A DNA stretch of 64,000 bases from Octopus vulgaris (lineage: Eukaryota). The position numbers were made by a program, and so were the translations under genes. The notes under the pieces were generated by a model. That model was not told the origin of the DNA. It saw nothing but the letters and a program-made list of their open reading frames with translations, and did no database searches. Of this stretch, positions 9,095 through 33,142 are shown one piece after another. The stretch lies in the NCBI GenBank assembly GCA_951406725.2, contig OX597826.1, positions 25,296,001 to 25,360,000 on the forward strand. Direction: 5' to 3'. Each line of letters opens with the position of its first letter. The stretch's first letter is position 1.

Positions 9095-9562
9095 TGTAAT
9101 TATAGCTACAGTCACCTTAATTTGAAGGATATGTAGATGATAAATCTTTGCTGTTTTATGGCCCCTAAAAGGCATGTAATTATAGTTATTTCACCTTAGT
9201 TTGAAGAATATGTAGATGATAGATCCCTGCTGTTTTACGACCTCTAAATGGCTTGTAATTACAGGTACTTCACCTTAGTTTGAAGGCTAGTTAGATGATA
9301 GATCCTTGCAGTTTTATGACCCCTAAACCTGTTGTAATTATAGTTATTTCACCTTAGCTTGATAGCTGGTTAGATGATAGATCCCTGCTGTTTTATGACC
9401 TCTAAATAGCTTGTAATTATAGGTATCACACTTTATTTTGAAGGCTGGTTAGATGATAGATCCTTGCAGTTTTATGACTCCTAAAGGGCTTGTAATTATA
9501 GCTTGAAGGATGGTTTGATGATAGCTCTCTGCTGCTTTATGACCCCTTACATTTGTAGTAAT
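9095..9562. repeat. ~79-bp minisatellite, ~6 copies
   Basis: Unit TGTAATTATAG..TTCACCTTAGTTTGAAGG..TAGATGATAGATCCCTGCTGTTTTATGACCYCTAAA starts at ~9095, 9175, 9254, 9333, 9412 and 9491. Confidence 0.92.
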
Positions 9563-10284: not shown

Positions 10285-13200
10285 GAACACTGGGGACATT
10301 TAACATGTGAGAGCGAAAAAACAGTGCTCCGAAATCTATCCACAAACATCGGAAACAAAGACATCGCATGGAGCTAAAAAATAACTGACAAAGGATTGGA
10401 CTATATCCGAGTAAGTAATACTCATTGAAATTTATTGCTATTTTCCAAACGAAATGATGCATTTTAACTCAATATCATCTCCACCGCTAACACAGCACAT
10501 GTAAACATGCTTGATACATTACGATCCCTCAACACCAGATCATCTCCAGCTCCAAACAGCATGTACAAAAAAACTACGAATAAATTAAATAATACCAGTA
10601 TTATTCAACCCAAGAATAAGTACGTACTGTAAACTTACAACATAAAATGTACAAAAAACTACACGTGCAAAACAATGTGACTAACAGAAATGAACGGACC
10701 GGTACCCTATGAAAATGACAACCGTCAAAATAATGGGCCGGACGTTGTTCCTCATGTCCCGCAAATAAAACCAAAAAGGCATAAATGGACACGTGAGGAA
10801 TACATTTCAATCCTACATGCATGCCTACTTTACAGCAGTGCTCTACCCAAAGAGCGAAAACACAACAACATATATGTATAAAATATGGAAGCAAAATAAC
10901 ATAAATAAAGACCTGGATGCAGCAATGAATCCTAATAAACTAGCTAATGTGCGAAGATATATTTTCAACGCAAAAAAAATATCAGGAATAGAAAAAGAAC
11001 ATTTAAAAGAAAAAATACATCAGGAAAATGAAGATAGAAGCCACACAACAATGCCAAACAATATAAACACTGAAACAGTAAAACACGAAGACAAACGTAA
11101 CATTTCCAACAAAAACGATGTAAAGAAAAAACAACAAACCCAGACCGTAAGGATACATAATAATACACGACAAACAGCAAGCCAAAACACGACAAACAAA
11201 CATACAAATGAGAAAGAAAGTGACACAAATCTAAAACCTGGAAACAACGAAGGGGAGCCTAATGATTATGATACTATAAAAAGTAGAATAATCAAAGAAC
11301 TGAAAACCACAGAGCTCAAAATGGAACACCGACCATACCTCCCAAAAATCAAAATAGACAAAACAACAACATCAATTATAAACAGCATAAACCTAGCCGT
11401 CGCAGAACTAATAGCCACTGAAACAAAAAGCGATATCACTAAGCTAAATGACTTAGTATATGCAGCAGCCACAAAAGAAGCTGGATACTCACTCAAACCC
11501 ATCCAAACTGGAGTACCACCACCCAAACAAACCCTGTGAATAAATAACATCCAAAACAAAATACAAAAAATGAGAAAAGATCTGTCGATTCTTAATGAAA
11601 TCAGTAGACAATCAACGCTACTAAGCAACAAAAAGAAAACAAAAATACTCCGAAAATACAACTTCACAGAAAAAGATCTACCTGAGATAAAAGAAAAGCT
11701 AAAGCAAGATATCCTTGCCAAAGCACAAAGGATCCACCGGTATGAGAAACGCCAACGTTTCTTTGAACAAAACAAACAGTTCAACTCCAACCCCAAAAAG
11801 TTCTACCAAGAACTTGGCAAAAATAAAATAGAAATCACTGCAGCACCAACGGCAGAAGAAGTGGAAGAATTCTGGAGAGAAATATGGTCGGCGAACGAAC
11901 AACCAAAAAAAGGGAGTATTAAAACAACAAACTCAGCATCTGAGCAACTTTGGACCCCCATAACAAATGAAGAGGTCACCCAGGCACTGCAAAGACTAAG
12001 CAACTGGAAGGCACCTGGGCAAGACAAAATCCTCAACTTCTGGTTGAAATATCTAACAGGAATGCACAAAAAGCTGGCTGAAAACTTTAACAACATACTG
12101 GCAGAGCCAGAGACAATGCCTGAATGGCTCACGAAGGAGAAAACCATTTTAATTCCCAAATCAAATGAGACAGCAAAACCAGAAAACTACAGACCTATAA
12201 CCTGTCTCCCTACAATGTACAAAGCATTTACTGCAGTAATATCACAAAGATTAAACAAGCACCTGGACGAAAACAACCTGTTTCCAGAAGAGCAGAAAGG
12301 ATGCCGCAAAGGCTCATATGGCTGTAAAGATCAACTAATGATCAATAAAGCCATAACTGAAGACAGCCACAGAAAGAAGAAAGGCCTCAGTATGGCCTGG
12401 ATCGACTACAAAAAGGCTTTTGATAGCATCCCCCACATGTGGATCCTCGAAACACTAGCCATTAACAAAGTTGCACCAACAATTATAAAATACATAGGAC
12501 ACTATGAATAAATGGCAGACAGTGCTACAGCTCCAAACAAAAGAGGGACTTGTGAAAACCAAGGCCATCCCCATTAGAAGAGGAATATTCCAGGGAGACA
12601 TGCTCTCTCCACTCCTTTTCTGCTTGGCACTGTCACCTCTATCGAATATGCTAAACATATGCGGATACAAATGTTACGGCAAAACGATCAGCCACCTCTT
12701 ATATATGGATGACCTAAAACTATACGCCACAAATGACGAACAGCTGGAAACACTACTAAAGACAGTTCATGGATTTACCAAATAAATAGATATGAAATTT
12801 GGATTGGAGAAATGCGCCAAAGTAACCCTAAAAAGAGGAAAACTAGTTAAGAGTAGCAACATCCCACTAGATAAAACCAATGAAATAAAAGAATTAGACC
12901 AAAGCCAAACTTACAAATACTTAGGAATCCATGAACTAGATAAGACACAACACACACAAATGAAAGAGAAAATAAAAAAGAATATTACAGACGAGTTAGA
13001 TCAATACTGAAAACAGAGATCAATGCTGAAAACAAGATAATAGGTATCAACACTTTAGCTGTCCCAGTTATAAGTTACAGCTACAATATCCTTAACTGGA
13101 CACTAAATGAACTGACCAAAATAGATAGGAAAACAAGAAAAATAATGACAAGATCTAGGATGCATCACCCAAAATCTGACATAGAAAGGCTATATATACA

Positions 13201-14332
13201 ATGTAGAGAAGGTGGTAGAGGCCTTATACAGCTGGAAAACTATTATAAAATAACCACCATAGGACTGCAAACATATCTACTTCAGAAGGAAGGAAAACTG
13301 ATACAAATAGCGGCAAAACACGAGCAAAACAAAAAACTGTTCTCAGTATTTAAGGAAGCTGACAAATACAAACAAGAAATCATAGCACCTAACAAATATG
13401 AAGAAGATGAAGAAACAACAAAAGCTATAAAACAAATGAAATCCAAACTAAAAATAGAACAGCAACGAACCATGATAAAACGATGGCAAGAAAAGCCCCT
13501 TCATGGCAAATACTGGACTAAACCAAATGCAAAAGAAATAGACAAAGAAAAATCCCAGCAATTGTTGAGAAGCTCAGGACTCAAAGCAGAGACAGAAGGA
13601 TTTTTAATTGCAGCACAAGACCAAAGCCTCCCCACCAGAAATTACCAAAAACATGTAATGAAAAGAAATATAACAAGTAACTGCAGAATATGTGGCGATG
13701 GACAAGAAACAATAAATCATATTATCTCTGGCTGCCCAGTCCTGGCTAAGAAGGAATATATTCACAGACACGACAGAGTTGGGACCTATATGCACTGGAA
13801 GCTATGCCAACATTATGAAATAACAACAGAAAAAAGATGGTATAGGCACACACCAGAAAAGGTCACAGAAAACGAGAAAGCAACCATACTCTGGGATATG
13901 CCGATACACACAGATAGAGAAATTAAGGCCAACAGACCAGATATAGTTGTCAGAGATCATGAAGAAAAAAAAATGCTTTCTAATTGATGTATCAATACTA
14001 GCAGATGACAACGTGTCTCTAAAAGAAATGGAGACCTGGAAATAGAGGTAACCAGAATGTGGAATCTAAAAACAGAAACAATTCCTATCATAATAGGTGC
14101 ATAAGGCATGATAAAAAAAATATTCAGACAAATACATAACAAAAACACCAGGACTTACAAACACATATAACATACAGAAAATTGCACTACTAGGCACTGC
14201 ACACATTCTACGCAGAACACTTTCCATACAGTAACCATCAGAGCATCACAACAAATCACAGCACATACCCAAGGCACACAGAGCTGCACTCGGTAGTGAA
14301 GTGAAAGCAGGCTATAAAAAAAAACACTACTG
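10285..14332 (+). mobile_element. R4/Dong-clade non-LTR retrotransposon, near full length, inactivated
   Basis: It has one ancestral ORF with RT and a C-terminal CCHC plus restriction-like endonuclease, and no APE domain. It is flanked on both sides by (AAT)n, the known Dong target. The 3' UTR is shared with the copy at 25971-26395. Confidence 0.92.
10690..14234 (+). pseudogene. Disrupted ORF of the Dong-like LINE (N-terminal domain, RT, CCHC, REL endonuclease)
   Basis: Motifs: KWTREEY; WKAPGQD; YRPITCLPTMYK; QKGC..G..GCKDQL; WIDYKKAFDSIPH; RGIFQGDMLSPLLF; LYMDDLKLY; FGLEKC; YKYLGI; GGRGL; CRICGDGQETINHIISGC; RHD; RPDIVV..LIDVSI. Disablements: frameshifts ~10820, ~12500, ~12975, ~13965; stops 11537, 12783, 14102; 19-bp deletion ~14034. 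Confidence 0.9.
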
Positions 14333-30519: not shown

Positions 30520-31223
30520 ATAGACAGCCTCACTAGATAGATAAATAGACAACTGACAGACAGATAAATAGATAGACATATAGATCAGTATGTTTAGTGA
30601 TGCAAACAACAGAACTCAAAATATGAGTATATATGCATATGTACAAACAAATATTCAACTCAAAATTTTTCAAGGCAGTGCCCCAGCATGACCAGTCTAA
30701 TGACTGGAATAAGTAAAAGATAAAAAGATAAACAGTAAGAAAAAGGAGGGGAGAGGAAGGAGGAGGAAGGGAGTTGGTCATGACTGTGATCATGCAGTCA
30801 AATGACTAAAACAATGTGTGTGTATATGTTTGTCCCCTCAACATCGCTTGACAACTGATGCTGGTGTGTTTATGCCCCCGTAACTTAGTGGTTCGGCAAA
30901 AGAGACCAATAGAATAAATACTAGGCTTACAAAGAATATGTCCTGGGGTTGATTTGCTCAACTAAAGGCGCTGCTCTAGCATGGCCACAGTCAAATGACT
31001 GAAACAAGTAAAAGAGTAAGAAATCATTATTTTAACATAGCGCACACTTTTCCCTCAACCTATTATATGGGCTGTGTATTTGTTTCTCTTATTTGTTTTT
31101 CAACTGTGATTTTATCATCGATCTTCCATGTAAACGAAGGTATTCATCCGTCTAGCTGCTTTTCTTTCTACCAAAAGAGATGTTACATTGTGGAACTGTT
31201 ATTTTCATGAGTTGTGGCTATAT

Positions 31224-31329
31224 ATCACCTGACGAGATACACGTGCATCGCCGGATGCTCCTGAACCAGTTGTCGAGTGTCCCACCCATGAGGGATTTAT
31301 ACTAGATATGTCGAAACAATTGTCGTGAT
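31224..31329 (+). ncRNA. Type I hammerhead ribozyme with intact core and long stem II insertion
   Basis: Stem I ATCAC/GTGAT; core CTGACGA (31229-31235); stem II GATA...TGTC; GAAA (31313-31316); palindromic stem III ACAATTGT; GUC cleavage triplet ending at 31324; AATAAA at 31331. Confidence 0.75.
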
Positions 31330-31364
31330 CAATAAATTCTCGTATATTCTATCTTCCATTTGCC

Positions 31365-31406
<42 letters not shown>

Positions 31407-31715: not shown

Positions 31716-32232
31716 GTGTTTGTGAATGTATATCTGAAGGAACTTCAAAGAAGAGACACAGGTAGACAGACAGAAAGCCAACATATGAACCAAGTAAGTA
31801 GTTGTATGTTTCGAAATTGAAGTAGTTGTATGTTTTGGTAAGTCGATGAAGATGTTATAGAGCCGATCAACCGATCAACATAAGAAGGAAGATCAATACA
31901 GCTTTATTAACTATAAAAAATAATAAATCACTACTAACATCTATAAACATGTCATCAATGAAGATTGGTCAAACTATTAAATTTATCTTCTCTGCAGCGA
32001 GGTGTAGGGGGTGGAATGAAAAACGGAGGTGGTGATCTTTATATTTATGCAATGTATCAATAGAAATAATGTTTTTTTTGTTTTTGTTTTTTATTTCAAT
32101 ACTCTTTAGAGTGAGGTGTCTTGTTTATAGGTACATAACTGTTTGTTGTTGCTGTTGTTGCTTAGCCCCAGGTCAGACCAGACTTACGATCAGGTGTTTT
32201 CCAACCATAATAAAGCAGTTTTACCCTCTATT

Positions 32233-32469
32233 CTGTTCTTTTACTTGTTTCAGTCATGCTGGAGCACTGCCTCTAGTCGAGCAAATCAACCTCCAGGACT
32301 TATTCTTTGTACTTATTCTATTGGTCTCTTTTGCTGAACCACTAAGTTACGGGTACATAAACACACCAGCATCGGTTGTCAAGCGATGTTGGAGGGACAA
32401 ACCCACACATACACACATACATATATATATATAATATATATATATATATATAAATATATATATATGTGT

Positions 32470-32519
<50 letters not shown>

Positions 32520-32717
32520 GTGCGTATATATATATGTATATATATGTGTATATATACATATATATACACACATATGATGGGCTTCTTTGAGTTTCTGTCT
32601 ATCAAATCTACTTACAAGGCTTTGGTTAGCCTAAGGCTATAGTAGAAGACACTAGCCCAAGGTGCCACACAGCAGGACTGAACCCGGAACCATGTGGTTG
32701 GTAAGCAAGCTTCTTAC
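32233..32717 (-). mobile_element. SINE family A with expanded internal microsatellite
   Basis: Both halves are present around a (TA/CA)n block. Confidence 0.85.
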
Positions 32718-33142
32718 CACACAGCCATTCCTGCACCTTTTTTTTTTTGTTTTGTTTTATAAGTTTGCTTCTCAACTGCTTGGTTTAAGGTTCAGTCCCA
32801 CTGCATAGCACCTTGGGTAACTGTCCTCTACTCATCTGTTTCCAAGTGCGGTAAAATTTCTGCAAGGCTAAAGTTAGCCAGGTTTTCATTGAAGACTGAG
32901 TGAAGGACATTGCTTGCACTATGGTGATGCTTGTTTGTAACTGTTGCTGATACAAACACACACACATAAATATACATATATACAATTTAATATATATCTC
33001 TTTCTTTTTTTTTTCATCTGTGATTTTATCATCGATTTTCTATGTAAACGAAGATATTTACCCGTCTGGCTGCTTTTCTTTCTACCAAAAGAGAGGTTAC
33101 ATTGTGGAACTGTTATTTTCATACGACACCGCTACGGAAAAT

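What the first reader, a model, noticed from the sequence alone, without database searches (positions are those of the whole stretch)
31224..31336. Intact hammerhead ribozyme core carrying a 77-nt branched stem II region
Seen: every invariant core element is present in type I order: ATCAC / CUGACGA / GAUA...UGUC / GAAA / palindromic ACAAUUGU / GUC / GUGAU. AATAAA follows almost immediately. The stem II region (31236-31312) holds two further hairpins (GCATC-GCCG-GATGC and TCCC...GGGA). It also holds GTGTC (31277-31281), which could pair with GATAC instead and disrupt the active fold. Known: Penelope-like elements and retrozymes carry minimal hammerheads with palindromic stem III that cleave as dimers, usually with a very short stem II. 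Inference: this is a structurally unusual and possibly still active or conformationally switchable ribozyme marking a non-coding Penelope/retrozyme-like family. If it lies in a transcribed intron it could cut the host pre-mRNA.
Basis: partly seen in the sequence, partly recalled or inferred. Interest (0 to 1): 0.8.

Follow-up and report, generated by a model that had tools for sequence, protein, structure and literature searches.

The report
Decayed Hydra-Penelope long-arm hammerhead
This is the worn tail of a known kind of jumping gene carrying its usual self-cutting RNA motif; this copy is predicted to misfold, and its textbook-perfect core likely arose by chance mutation, because most copies of the family carry a variant core and all share the long arm.

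Summary
The motif is real and sits at the stated coordinates. It is the 3' UTR hammerhead of an old, high-copy, protein-coding Penelope-like retrotransposon of the Hydra clade (RWK, DKT, CxCX5C, no CCHH, TA-repeat flanks), not a non-coding retrozyme. The window holds a ~300-nt 5'-truncated copy. The 77-nt stem II region is family-wide (9-bp helix plus extension), three times longer than in 26 published Hydra rows. But the 'intact' core is not the family state: most copies read CCGA (U4C). Copies with TG and CA at that CpG are about equally common (19 vs 16 of 100), so this copy's U4 likely came from CpG decay. No support for a switch or host-RNA cutting. Two other long-arm Hydra families here also amplified with CCGA, beside CUGA subfamilies. 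The scan had already noted long-arm Hydra hammerheads in this and other genomes. Cleavage is untested.

The parts
31073..31368 (+). 5'-truncated 3' end (3' UTR / pLTR) of a Hydra-clade Penelope-like element; 5' edge lies between about 31073 and 31100; ends at the family's short 3' end, about 44 nt past the predicted cut
   Evidence: BLAST to paralogues 80-85%; longer copies continue upstream into the EN and RT ORF; 3' ends
31224..31228 (+). Stem I, 5' strand
   Evidence: pairs with 31325-29; in most family copies the helix continues after a U-U mismatch
31229..31235 (+). Core C3-A9, CUGACGA here; family majority CCGANGA
31230..31231 (+). Positions 4-5: a CpG in the family, TG in this copy (likely deamination that recreates the canonical U4)
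   Evidence: core-blind counts CG 56, TG 19, CA 16, other 9 of 100 (hand count); 24/10/7 of 46
31236..31244 (+). Stem II, 5' strand (9 bp in the family; pairs at 31240, 31242, 31243 broken in this copy)
   Evidence: each pair formed in 105-117 of 116-120 copies
31245..31303 (+). Long stem II cap: 3-bp extension plus about 52 nt of weakly structured sequence; family-wide in length, inner fold not resolved
   Evidence: inner region z-scores -0.93 to +0.94
31304..31312 (+). Stem II, 3' strand
31313..31316 (+). Core G12-A15.1 (GAAA)
31316..31323 (+). 8-nt palindromic stem III; predicted to pair in trans (duplex -6.4 kcal/mol; monomer hairpin +2.4)
31324..31324 (+). C17, predicted cleavage site (untested)
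   Evidence: hammerhead numbering
31325..31329 (+). Stem I, 3' strand
31331..31336 (+). AATAAA; in the family it overlaps the extension of stem I, and copies do not end in poly(A)
31368..31398 (+). (TG)n, then (TA)n-rich microsatellite at the 3' junction, the usual Hydra target
   Evidence: 3' flanks of 30 paralogues
33008..33121 (+). Second fragment of the same element, stopping about 17 nt before stem I; shares this copy's private variants
   Evidence: the shared variant word occurs only at these two places in the genome

Best explanation
The motif is the hammerhead in the 3' end of a 5'-truncated copy of an old Hydra-clade Penelope-like retrotransposon; this copy is predicted to misfold and is likely inactive, and its canonical CUGA core likely arose by CpG deamination of the family's CCGA core. 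Shown: element identity, family-wide 77-nt stem II region, CCGA majority, broken stem II pairs in this copy. Inferred: the source element's ribozyme (CCGA core, 9+3-bp stem II, 8-nt palindromic stem III) cut slowly and mainly as a dimer in tandem transcripts; reverse transcription started 44 or about 115 nt downstream of the cut site on RNA that was uncut there, so every insertion carries the whole motif; after insertion the copy decayed neutrally. The long arm is a tolerated peripheral insertion, not a switch.
For: Paralogues: 2412 candidates, best 85%; 275 and 285 exact matches to two 28-32-nt patterns. ORF motifs RWK, DKT, YRDD, CxCX5C, CxxC..E..N..CxH, no CCHH match the Hydra definition (PMC8557442 section 11 and Fig. 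S7 passages). Inverted partner copies at 21 of 158 loci, two alternative 3' ends. Core: CCG 97, CTG 32, CCA 18 with one exact pattern; core-blind CG 56, TG 19, CA 16 of the first 100 of 275 (binomial p = 0.74); 24/10/7 in 46 core-blind copies, like the other 11 CpGs. TG and CA copies are both more decayed at other CpGs (0.43, 0.41 vs 0.31; p = 0.005, 0.04). U4 copies do not cluster on a tree (P = 0.079) while masked subfamily markers do (P <= 0.005). G5, G8, G12 are each lost in 7-9 of 46 core-blind copies. This copy ranks 95 of 104 for the cost of the hammerhead-ready fold (12.1 vs median 5.8 kcal/mol); stems I and II under 0.005 vs family means 0.54 and 0.45. 0 of 30 copies picked by the post-cut segment begin at the cut. 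In a Poseidon PLE, ribozyme mutants did not affect insertion in vitro (PMC11167929, passages).
Against: TG exceeds CA in the first pattern set (32 vs 18, p = 0.065), the tree test is borderline (P = 0.079) and U4 associates with one marker (31288 G, p = 0.029, uncorrected, 1 of 9 tests), so a small true U4 subfamily is not excluded; sister families have such subfamilies. Non-CpG core positions differ less than the rest (12/315 vs 332/5713, not tested, BLAST-selected copies). Folding is prediction only and ignores dimers, tertiary contacts and proteins. This copy's private variants are shared with the fragment at 33008-33121, so some may predate insertion. No in vitro cleavage was run.
Confidence: 0.82

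Rival explanations
1. This copy descends from a minor source lineage that truly had CUGA; U4 is inherited, not decay. The copy is still a dead fragment.
For: Slight TG excess (32 vs 18); P = 0.079 on the tree and link to 31288 G; true CUGA subfamilies in two sister families; local second fragment shares private variants.
Against: Core-blind TG = CA (19 vs 16; 10 vs 7; no TG excess among 30 copies); this copy has A at 31288; its private variant word occurs nowhere else in the genome.
Confidence: 0.12
2. The locus is a live or switchable ribozyme that cuts a host transcript, with the inner GUGUC competing for stem II.
For: All core letters canonical; 5-bp stem I and 4-bp stem II base possible; the competing 5-bp pairing is possible in most copies; a contig under another organism label spans the 5' junction with 4 other letters and 1 gap, so the insertion is shared.
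Against: Both the active stem II (7e-6) and the competitor (9e-5) are rare in this copy's ensemble; stem II damage; no partner hammerhead in the window; no host exon identified; metazoan PLE hammerheads tested as single motifs were inactive (PMC4209133, part 2).
Confidence: 0.04
3. The repeat is a non-autonomous retrozyme (short tandem non-coding unit with circular RNA).
For: This copy itself is non-coding; retrozymes are reported to derive from PLE pLTRs (10.64898/2026.07.22.740005, abstract only).
Against: Copies extend upstream into the PLE ORF with variable 5' truncation; only 1 of 158 loci has two same-strand 3' ends against 21 inverted.
Confidence: 0.02

Closest known systems
Hydra clade of C-terminal EN+ Penelope-like elements, e.g. 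Hydra-1_Obim (Craig et al. 2021, PMC8557442; passages, section 11, File S1 Hydra sheet, File S2, Fig. S7 snippets read)
   Same: RWK, DKT, CxCX5C linker, EN without CCHH, (TA)n targets, type I hammerhead in the 3' end with palindromic stem III.
   Different: A separate family (by eye only about a third of residues match Hydra-1_Obim in the N-terminal RT; not aligned by tool). All 26 Hydra rows of File S2 have CUGA and stem II regions of at most about 26 nt; this family has CCGA and 77 nt.
Minimal and palindromic-stem-III hammerheads of metazoan PLEs (Cervera and de la Pena 2014, PMC4209133; parts 1-2 of 4 read, 2 supplement files searched, 1 not searchable)
   Same: Larger than usual helix II, short stem I, palindromic stem III, single dispersed truncated copies, opposite-strand pairs.
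   Different: Helix II cap far longer; U4C is not among the variants in the text I read (U3-A8 is).
U4C (CCGA) hammerheads of viroids and viroid-like RNAs (PMC3088659 passages and section 8; PMC9608096 one passage; 10.64898/2026.09.16.752053 three passages)
   Same: Same core change; reported as lower in vitro activity yet infectious (PMC3088659) or as still self-cleaving (PMC9608096).
   Different: Those are circular RNA replicons with tertiary contacts; here it is the majority state of genomic retrotransposon families and is untested.
PLE-X1 hammerheads of spike mosses (File S2 of PMC8557442)
   Same: Long stem II region (about 50 nt) in a PLE hammerhead, flagged as deviating.
   Different: Chlamys-related EN-minus plant elements; CUGA core.

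Membership tests
Hydra-clade PLE | Single ORF with PLE RT and C-terminal GIY-YIG EN, under 3 kb | tested here: met
   Decayed ORF aligned end to end with an intact relative in L134, L140, L208, L217; weak Pfam GIY-YIG hit E = 0.034, below cut-off; ORF end about 400 nt before the hammerhead. Not present in the window copy itself.
Hydra-clade PLE | N-terminal RWK motif | tested here: met
   MRWKAFFF in L134, L208, L216
Hydra-clade PLE | DKG modified to DKT | tested here: met
   PADKTS in L134, L140, L224
Hydra-clade PLE | CxCX5C linker; CCHH absent; CxxC and CxH around E and N | tested here: met
   CSCRDKSKC; CRLC..E..N..CLH; no CxxC between the GIY and YIG blocks
Hydra-clade PLE | Insertion into (TA)n | tested here: met
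   Most of 30 copies are followed by TA-rich repeats; window copy by (TG)n/(TA)n
Hydra-clade PLE | Placement in the Hydra clade on an RT tree with named references | not tested
   The tree (41 rows, 171 columns) held only unnamed relatives; published reference sequences were read but not entered
Hydra-clade PLE | Canonical hammerhead | tested here: inconclusive
   Topology canonical; family core is U4C and stem II is long; this copy's core is canonical
Type I hammerhead ribozyme | Core CUGANGA / GAAA / UH with stems I-III in type I order | tested here: met
   (sequence level, this copy)
Type I hammerhead ribozyme | Stems supported by covariation | tested here: inconclusive
   Within the family only one-sided changes (U-G to C-G at 31238) and decay; RNAalifold on 121 rows returned no structure. 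Across families the same layout recurs with unrelated stem sequences.
Type I hammerhead ribozyme | Self-cleavage | not testable with these tools
   Only contigs were available; no bench test
Non-LTR retrozyme | Short non-coding unit in head-to-tail tandem repeats | tested here: not met
   Copies run into a PLE ORF; 1 same-strand vs 21 inverted pairs in 158 loci
Non-LTR retrozyme | Abundant circular RNA | not testable with these tools
   No raw RNA reads offered

The most novel reading that the evidence does not exclude
Hydra-type retrotransposons in this genome have repeatedly turned their hammerhead down: long-arm ribozymes switched from CUGA to CCGA in at least three separately amplifying families because a slow ribozyme leaves more uncut template for reverse transcription. 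Sister subfamilies that differ at U4/C4, one within a young ORF-intact family, would then be a natural experiment on what Penelope hammerheads are for.
Probability: 0.22. Interest if true: 0.55.

Novelty: new variant of a known kind. Interest (0 to 1): 0.3.

Why it matters
The locus itself matters little: it is one decayed copy among at least hundreds. It is a useful caution that a perfect-looking core in an old repeat can be made by CpG decay. At family level, CCGA cores and 50-100-nt stem II regions escape CUGA-anchored, short-loop descriptors and Rfam, so PLE hammerheads are undercounted. Paired U4 and C4 subfamilies give a direct test of whether cleavage rate matters for Penelope mobility, an open question since ribozyme mutants did not affect insertion in vitro in one element.

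Tried and rejected
Rfam at gathering score: no hammerhead hit; a marginal group II intron hit at 31716-31825 (32.2 bits vs 32) lies beside microsatellite and was not followed. A short-stem-II pattern found nothing in the window. Pfam missed the decayed ORF pieces; a word-indexed protein search found nothing; the HMMER search found 910 unnamed relatives. RNAalifold on 121 decayed rows gave an empty structure. Inner hairpins of the cap: no better than shuffles in the 10 least diverged copies or this one; a family candidate helix 31253-60/31275-82 reaches only 0.27-0.35 mean probability. A core-sequestering helix with 31338-43 was considered and is rare in the ensembles. Expression: no RNA holder listed; in runs only guessed to be RNA, one contig matches 31145-31342 with 1 difference at depth 2.6 and another 31073-31239 at depth 3.2; the first passes the cut site by only 18 letters, strand is unknown and DNA may be the source, so I draw nothing from them. 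Orthologue test of U4: a contig under another organism label spans 30995-31278 and no difference is listed at 31230, but paralogous depth hides rows, so it is weak. Host gene: 100 of 251 filtered ORFs scanned; only LINE RT/EN domains and a repeat-derived Cornifin hit; short exons would be missed. The RT tree does not resolve whether the CCGA families are sisters (it lacked the 100-nt family). An identity count was off by one base and discarded. Luense et al. 2017 (PMC5785218) was not held: it may already describe U4C or long-arm PLE variants. Literature searches that found no PLE case: hammerhead+U4C, hammerhead+CCGA, hammerhead+octopus, 'extended stem II', 'core variant', terminons; subscription papers and bioRxiv supplements are not covered.

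Full report
Observation. A type I hammerhead descriptor allowing a long stem II finds this motif alone in the window; 100 shuffles gave 0.09 loose hits per window and none as strict. Rfam misses it. Folded alone, the stretch is no more stable than shuffles (z = +0.40) and does not take the hammerhead fold.

What it belongs to. The window lies in a 2.8-Gb genome of 227 contigs; an earlier scan note calls it an octopus, which I did not verify. The 266 bases around the motif gave 2412 candidates, the best paralogues 80-85% identical. Similarity to the window copy runs from about 31073-31100 to 31368, where microsatellite begins. Other copies extend more than 2 kb further upstream into a decayed single ORF that ends about 400 nt before the hammerhead. 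[quoted passage not shown] These are the features by which Craig et al. define the Hydra clade, along with (TA)n targets (PMC8557442 section 11, Fig. S7 snippets). Penelope signatures follow: inverted partner copies at 21 of 158 loci, and two 3' ends, one about 44 nt past the cut site and one about 70 nt further. All nine long copies aligned are broken by stops or frameshifts, and among 150 RT hits those at 55% identity or more have open frames of 421 aa at most. The least diverged copy differs by 1.5% from the column majority at non-CpG sites, the median by 7%. The family is old and no intact member was seen. So this is a protein-coding PLE's 3' end, not a retrozyme.

The core. Most copies do not read CUGA. 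One exact pattern gave CCG 97, CTG 32, CCA 18 genome-wide. A pattern blind to these positions gave, in the first 100 of 275 listed, CG 56, TG 19, CA 16, other 9 at positions 4-5 (my hand count; TG vs CA p = 0.74). In 46 copies chosen by BLAST or by protein the counts were 24, 10, 7, the same profile as the other 11 CpGs of the region. TG and CA copies are both more decayed at other CpGs than CG copies (0.43 and 0.41 vs 0.31; p = 0.005 and 0.04). On a tree of 97 copies with CpG columns masked, U4 needs 23 changes against 26.4 for shuffled labels (P = 0.079), whereas three masked subfamily markers cluster (P <= 0.005). The simplest reading is that the source carried CCGA and that this copy's U4 is a deamination. 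Against it: the 32 vs 18 excess (p = 0.065), the borderline tree, one marker association (p = 0.029, 1 of 9 tests), and true CUGA subfamilies in sister families. I put decay at about 0.85. G5, G8 and G12 are each lost in 7-9 of the 46 copies; only 4 have a fully canonical core and 12 a full C4 core, as expected without selection on genomic copies.

The long arm. The 77-nt length is family-wide. In the family stem II is a 9-bp helix, each pair formed in 105-117 of 116-120 copies, then a bulge and 3 more pairs. The window copy has broken 3 of the 9 and 1 of the 3. Forcing the hammerhead-ready fold costs 12.1 kcal/mol, rank 95 of 104 foldable copies of 121. The proposed competitor GAUAC/GUGUC is possible in most copies but rare (9e-5 here; family mean 0.07). 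The inner 52 nt fold no better than shuffles, so a defined branched cap is not established. AATAAA overlaps the family's extension of stem I.

How it likely worked. The 8-nt palindromic stem III is unstable as a hairpin (+2.4 kcal/mol) and favourable as a duplex (-6.4), the dimer arrangement described for metazoan PLE hammerheads, which were inactive as single motifs and weak as dimers (PMC4209133). None of 30 copies picked only by the segment after the cut begins at the cut, and copies end 44 or about 115 nt beyond it, so templates were uncut or re-joined there (inference). This fits Frangieh et al., where reverse transcription starts internally and ribozyme mutants do not affect insertion in vitro (PMC11167929). 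U4C is a known natural variant in viroid-like RNAs, reported as slower but viable (PMC3088659) or still cleaving (PMC9608096). The window has no second hammerhead of the family; a fragment at 33008-33121 shares this copy's private variants but stops before stem I. No host exon was identified. Cleavage of a host RNA by this copy is therefore unlikely, though untested.

Other families. Related Hydra-type families in the genome, about 50% identical in RT, carry hammerheads with stem II regions of 51, 55-56, 57, 58, 59, 60 and 100 nt, and others of 12-17 nt; no hammerhead was found for several. A young 778-aa family (copies 98-99% identical, three of four with open ORFs) has CCGAAGA with a 56-nt arm in both terminal repeats; first 100 of 956 matches: CCGAAGA 54, CUGAGGA 32, CUGAAGA 9, CCA 2, other 3 (hand count). 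The 100-nt family: CCG 59, CTG 34, CCA 1, other 6 in the first 100 of 789 (hand count). There TG far exceeds CA, so U4 and C4 lineages both amplified. The RT tree cannot say how often the change arose, but co-existence within two families implies more than once.

Comparison and novelty. It works like, and by motifs is, a Hydra-clade PLE hammerhead; a tree with named references was not run. All 26 Hydra rows of File S2 have CUGA and stem II regions up to about 26 nt; two plant PLE-X rows reach about 50 nt. My searches found no PLE hammerhead with CCGA, but Luense et al. 2017 could not be read. The scan had already noted long-arm Hydra hammerheads in this genome and others and a CCGA retrozyme elsewhere; a search for U4C with CpG decay returned nothing. 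Verdict: new variant of a known kind; the locus is an ordinary decayed copy; interest 0.3, carried by the family-level U4/C4 pattern.

Noticed in passing
L149-L154 (G000:C5:2194181-2199499 and others): Young, ORF-intact 778-aa Hydra-type family with a CCGAAGA core and 56-nt stem II region in both terminal repeats; a sister subfamily has CUGAGGA. At least 956 motif copies.
   Followed up: partly
L234-L236: Hydra-type family with a 100-nt rod-like stem II region; CCGA and CUGA subfamilies; at least 789 motif copies.
   Followed up: partly
L156, L225, L226, L228, L231, L232: Further Hydra-type families with 51-60-nt stem II regions and CUGA cores; several share an inner hairpin around CUGCA/UGCAG-like strands.
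   Followed up: no
L222 (oriented 5001) and L153 (antisense 4665): Short-arm hammerheads (15 and 18 nt) of other repeats that also have a CCGAAGA core.
   Followed up: no
L163-L174: Two young Hydra-type families (718 and 727 aa; many near-identical copies of the latter) in which my descriptor found no hammerhead within about 1.2-1.5 kb of the ORF.
   Followed up: no
L003, L012, L019, L024 and others, just past the position matching window 31368: An optional 3' tail of about 70 nt present in a minority of copies, often on one arm of an inverted pair; resembles the PLE 'tail' between two RT start sites.
   Followed up: partly
window 33008-33121: Second fragment of the element with the same private variants as the main copy, cut by another sequence just before stem I.
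   Followed up: partly
window 10769-13984 (+) and 41308-44211 (-): Two LINE-type retrotransposon remnants with RT and endonuclease or zf-RVT domains.
   Followed up: no
window 30815-31019 and 32236-32832: Very high-copy short repeats (SINE-like) flanking the element.
   Followed up: no
window 31716-31825: Marginal Rfam group-II-D1D4-3 hit (32.2 bits, gathering 32) next to microsatellite; probably chance.
   Followed up: no
window 9095-9501: 79-bp tandem repeat, 5.1 copies.
   Followed up: no
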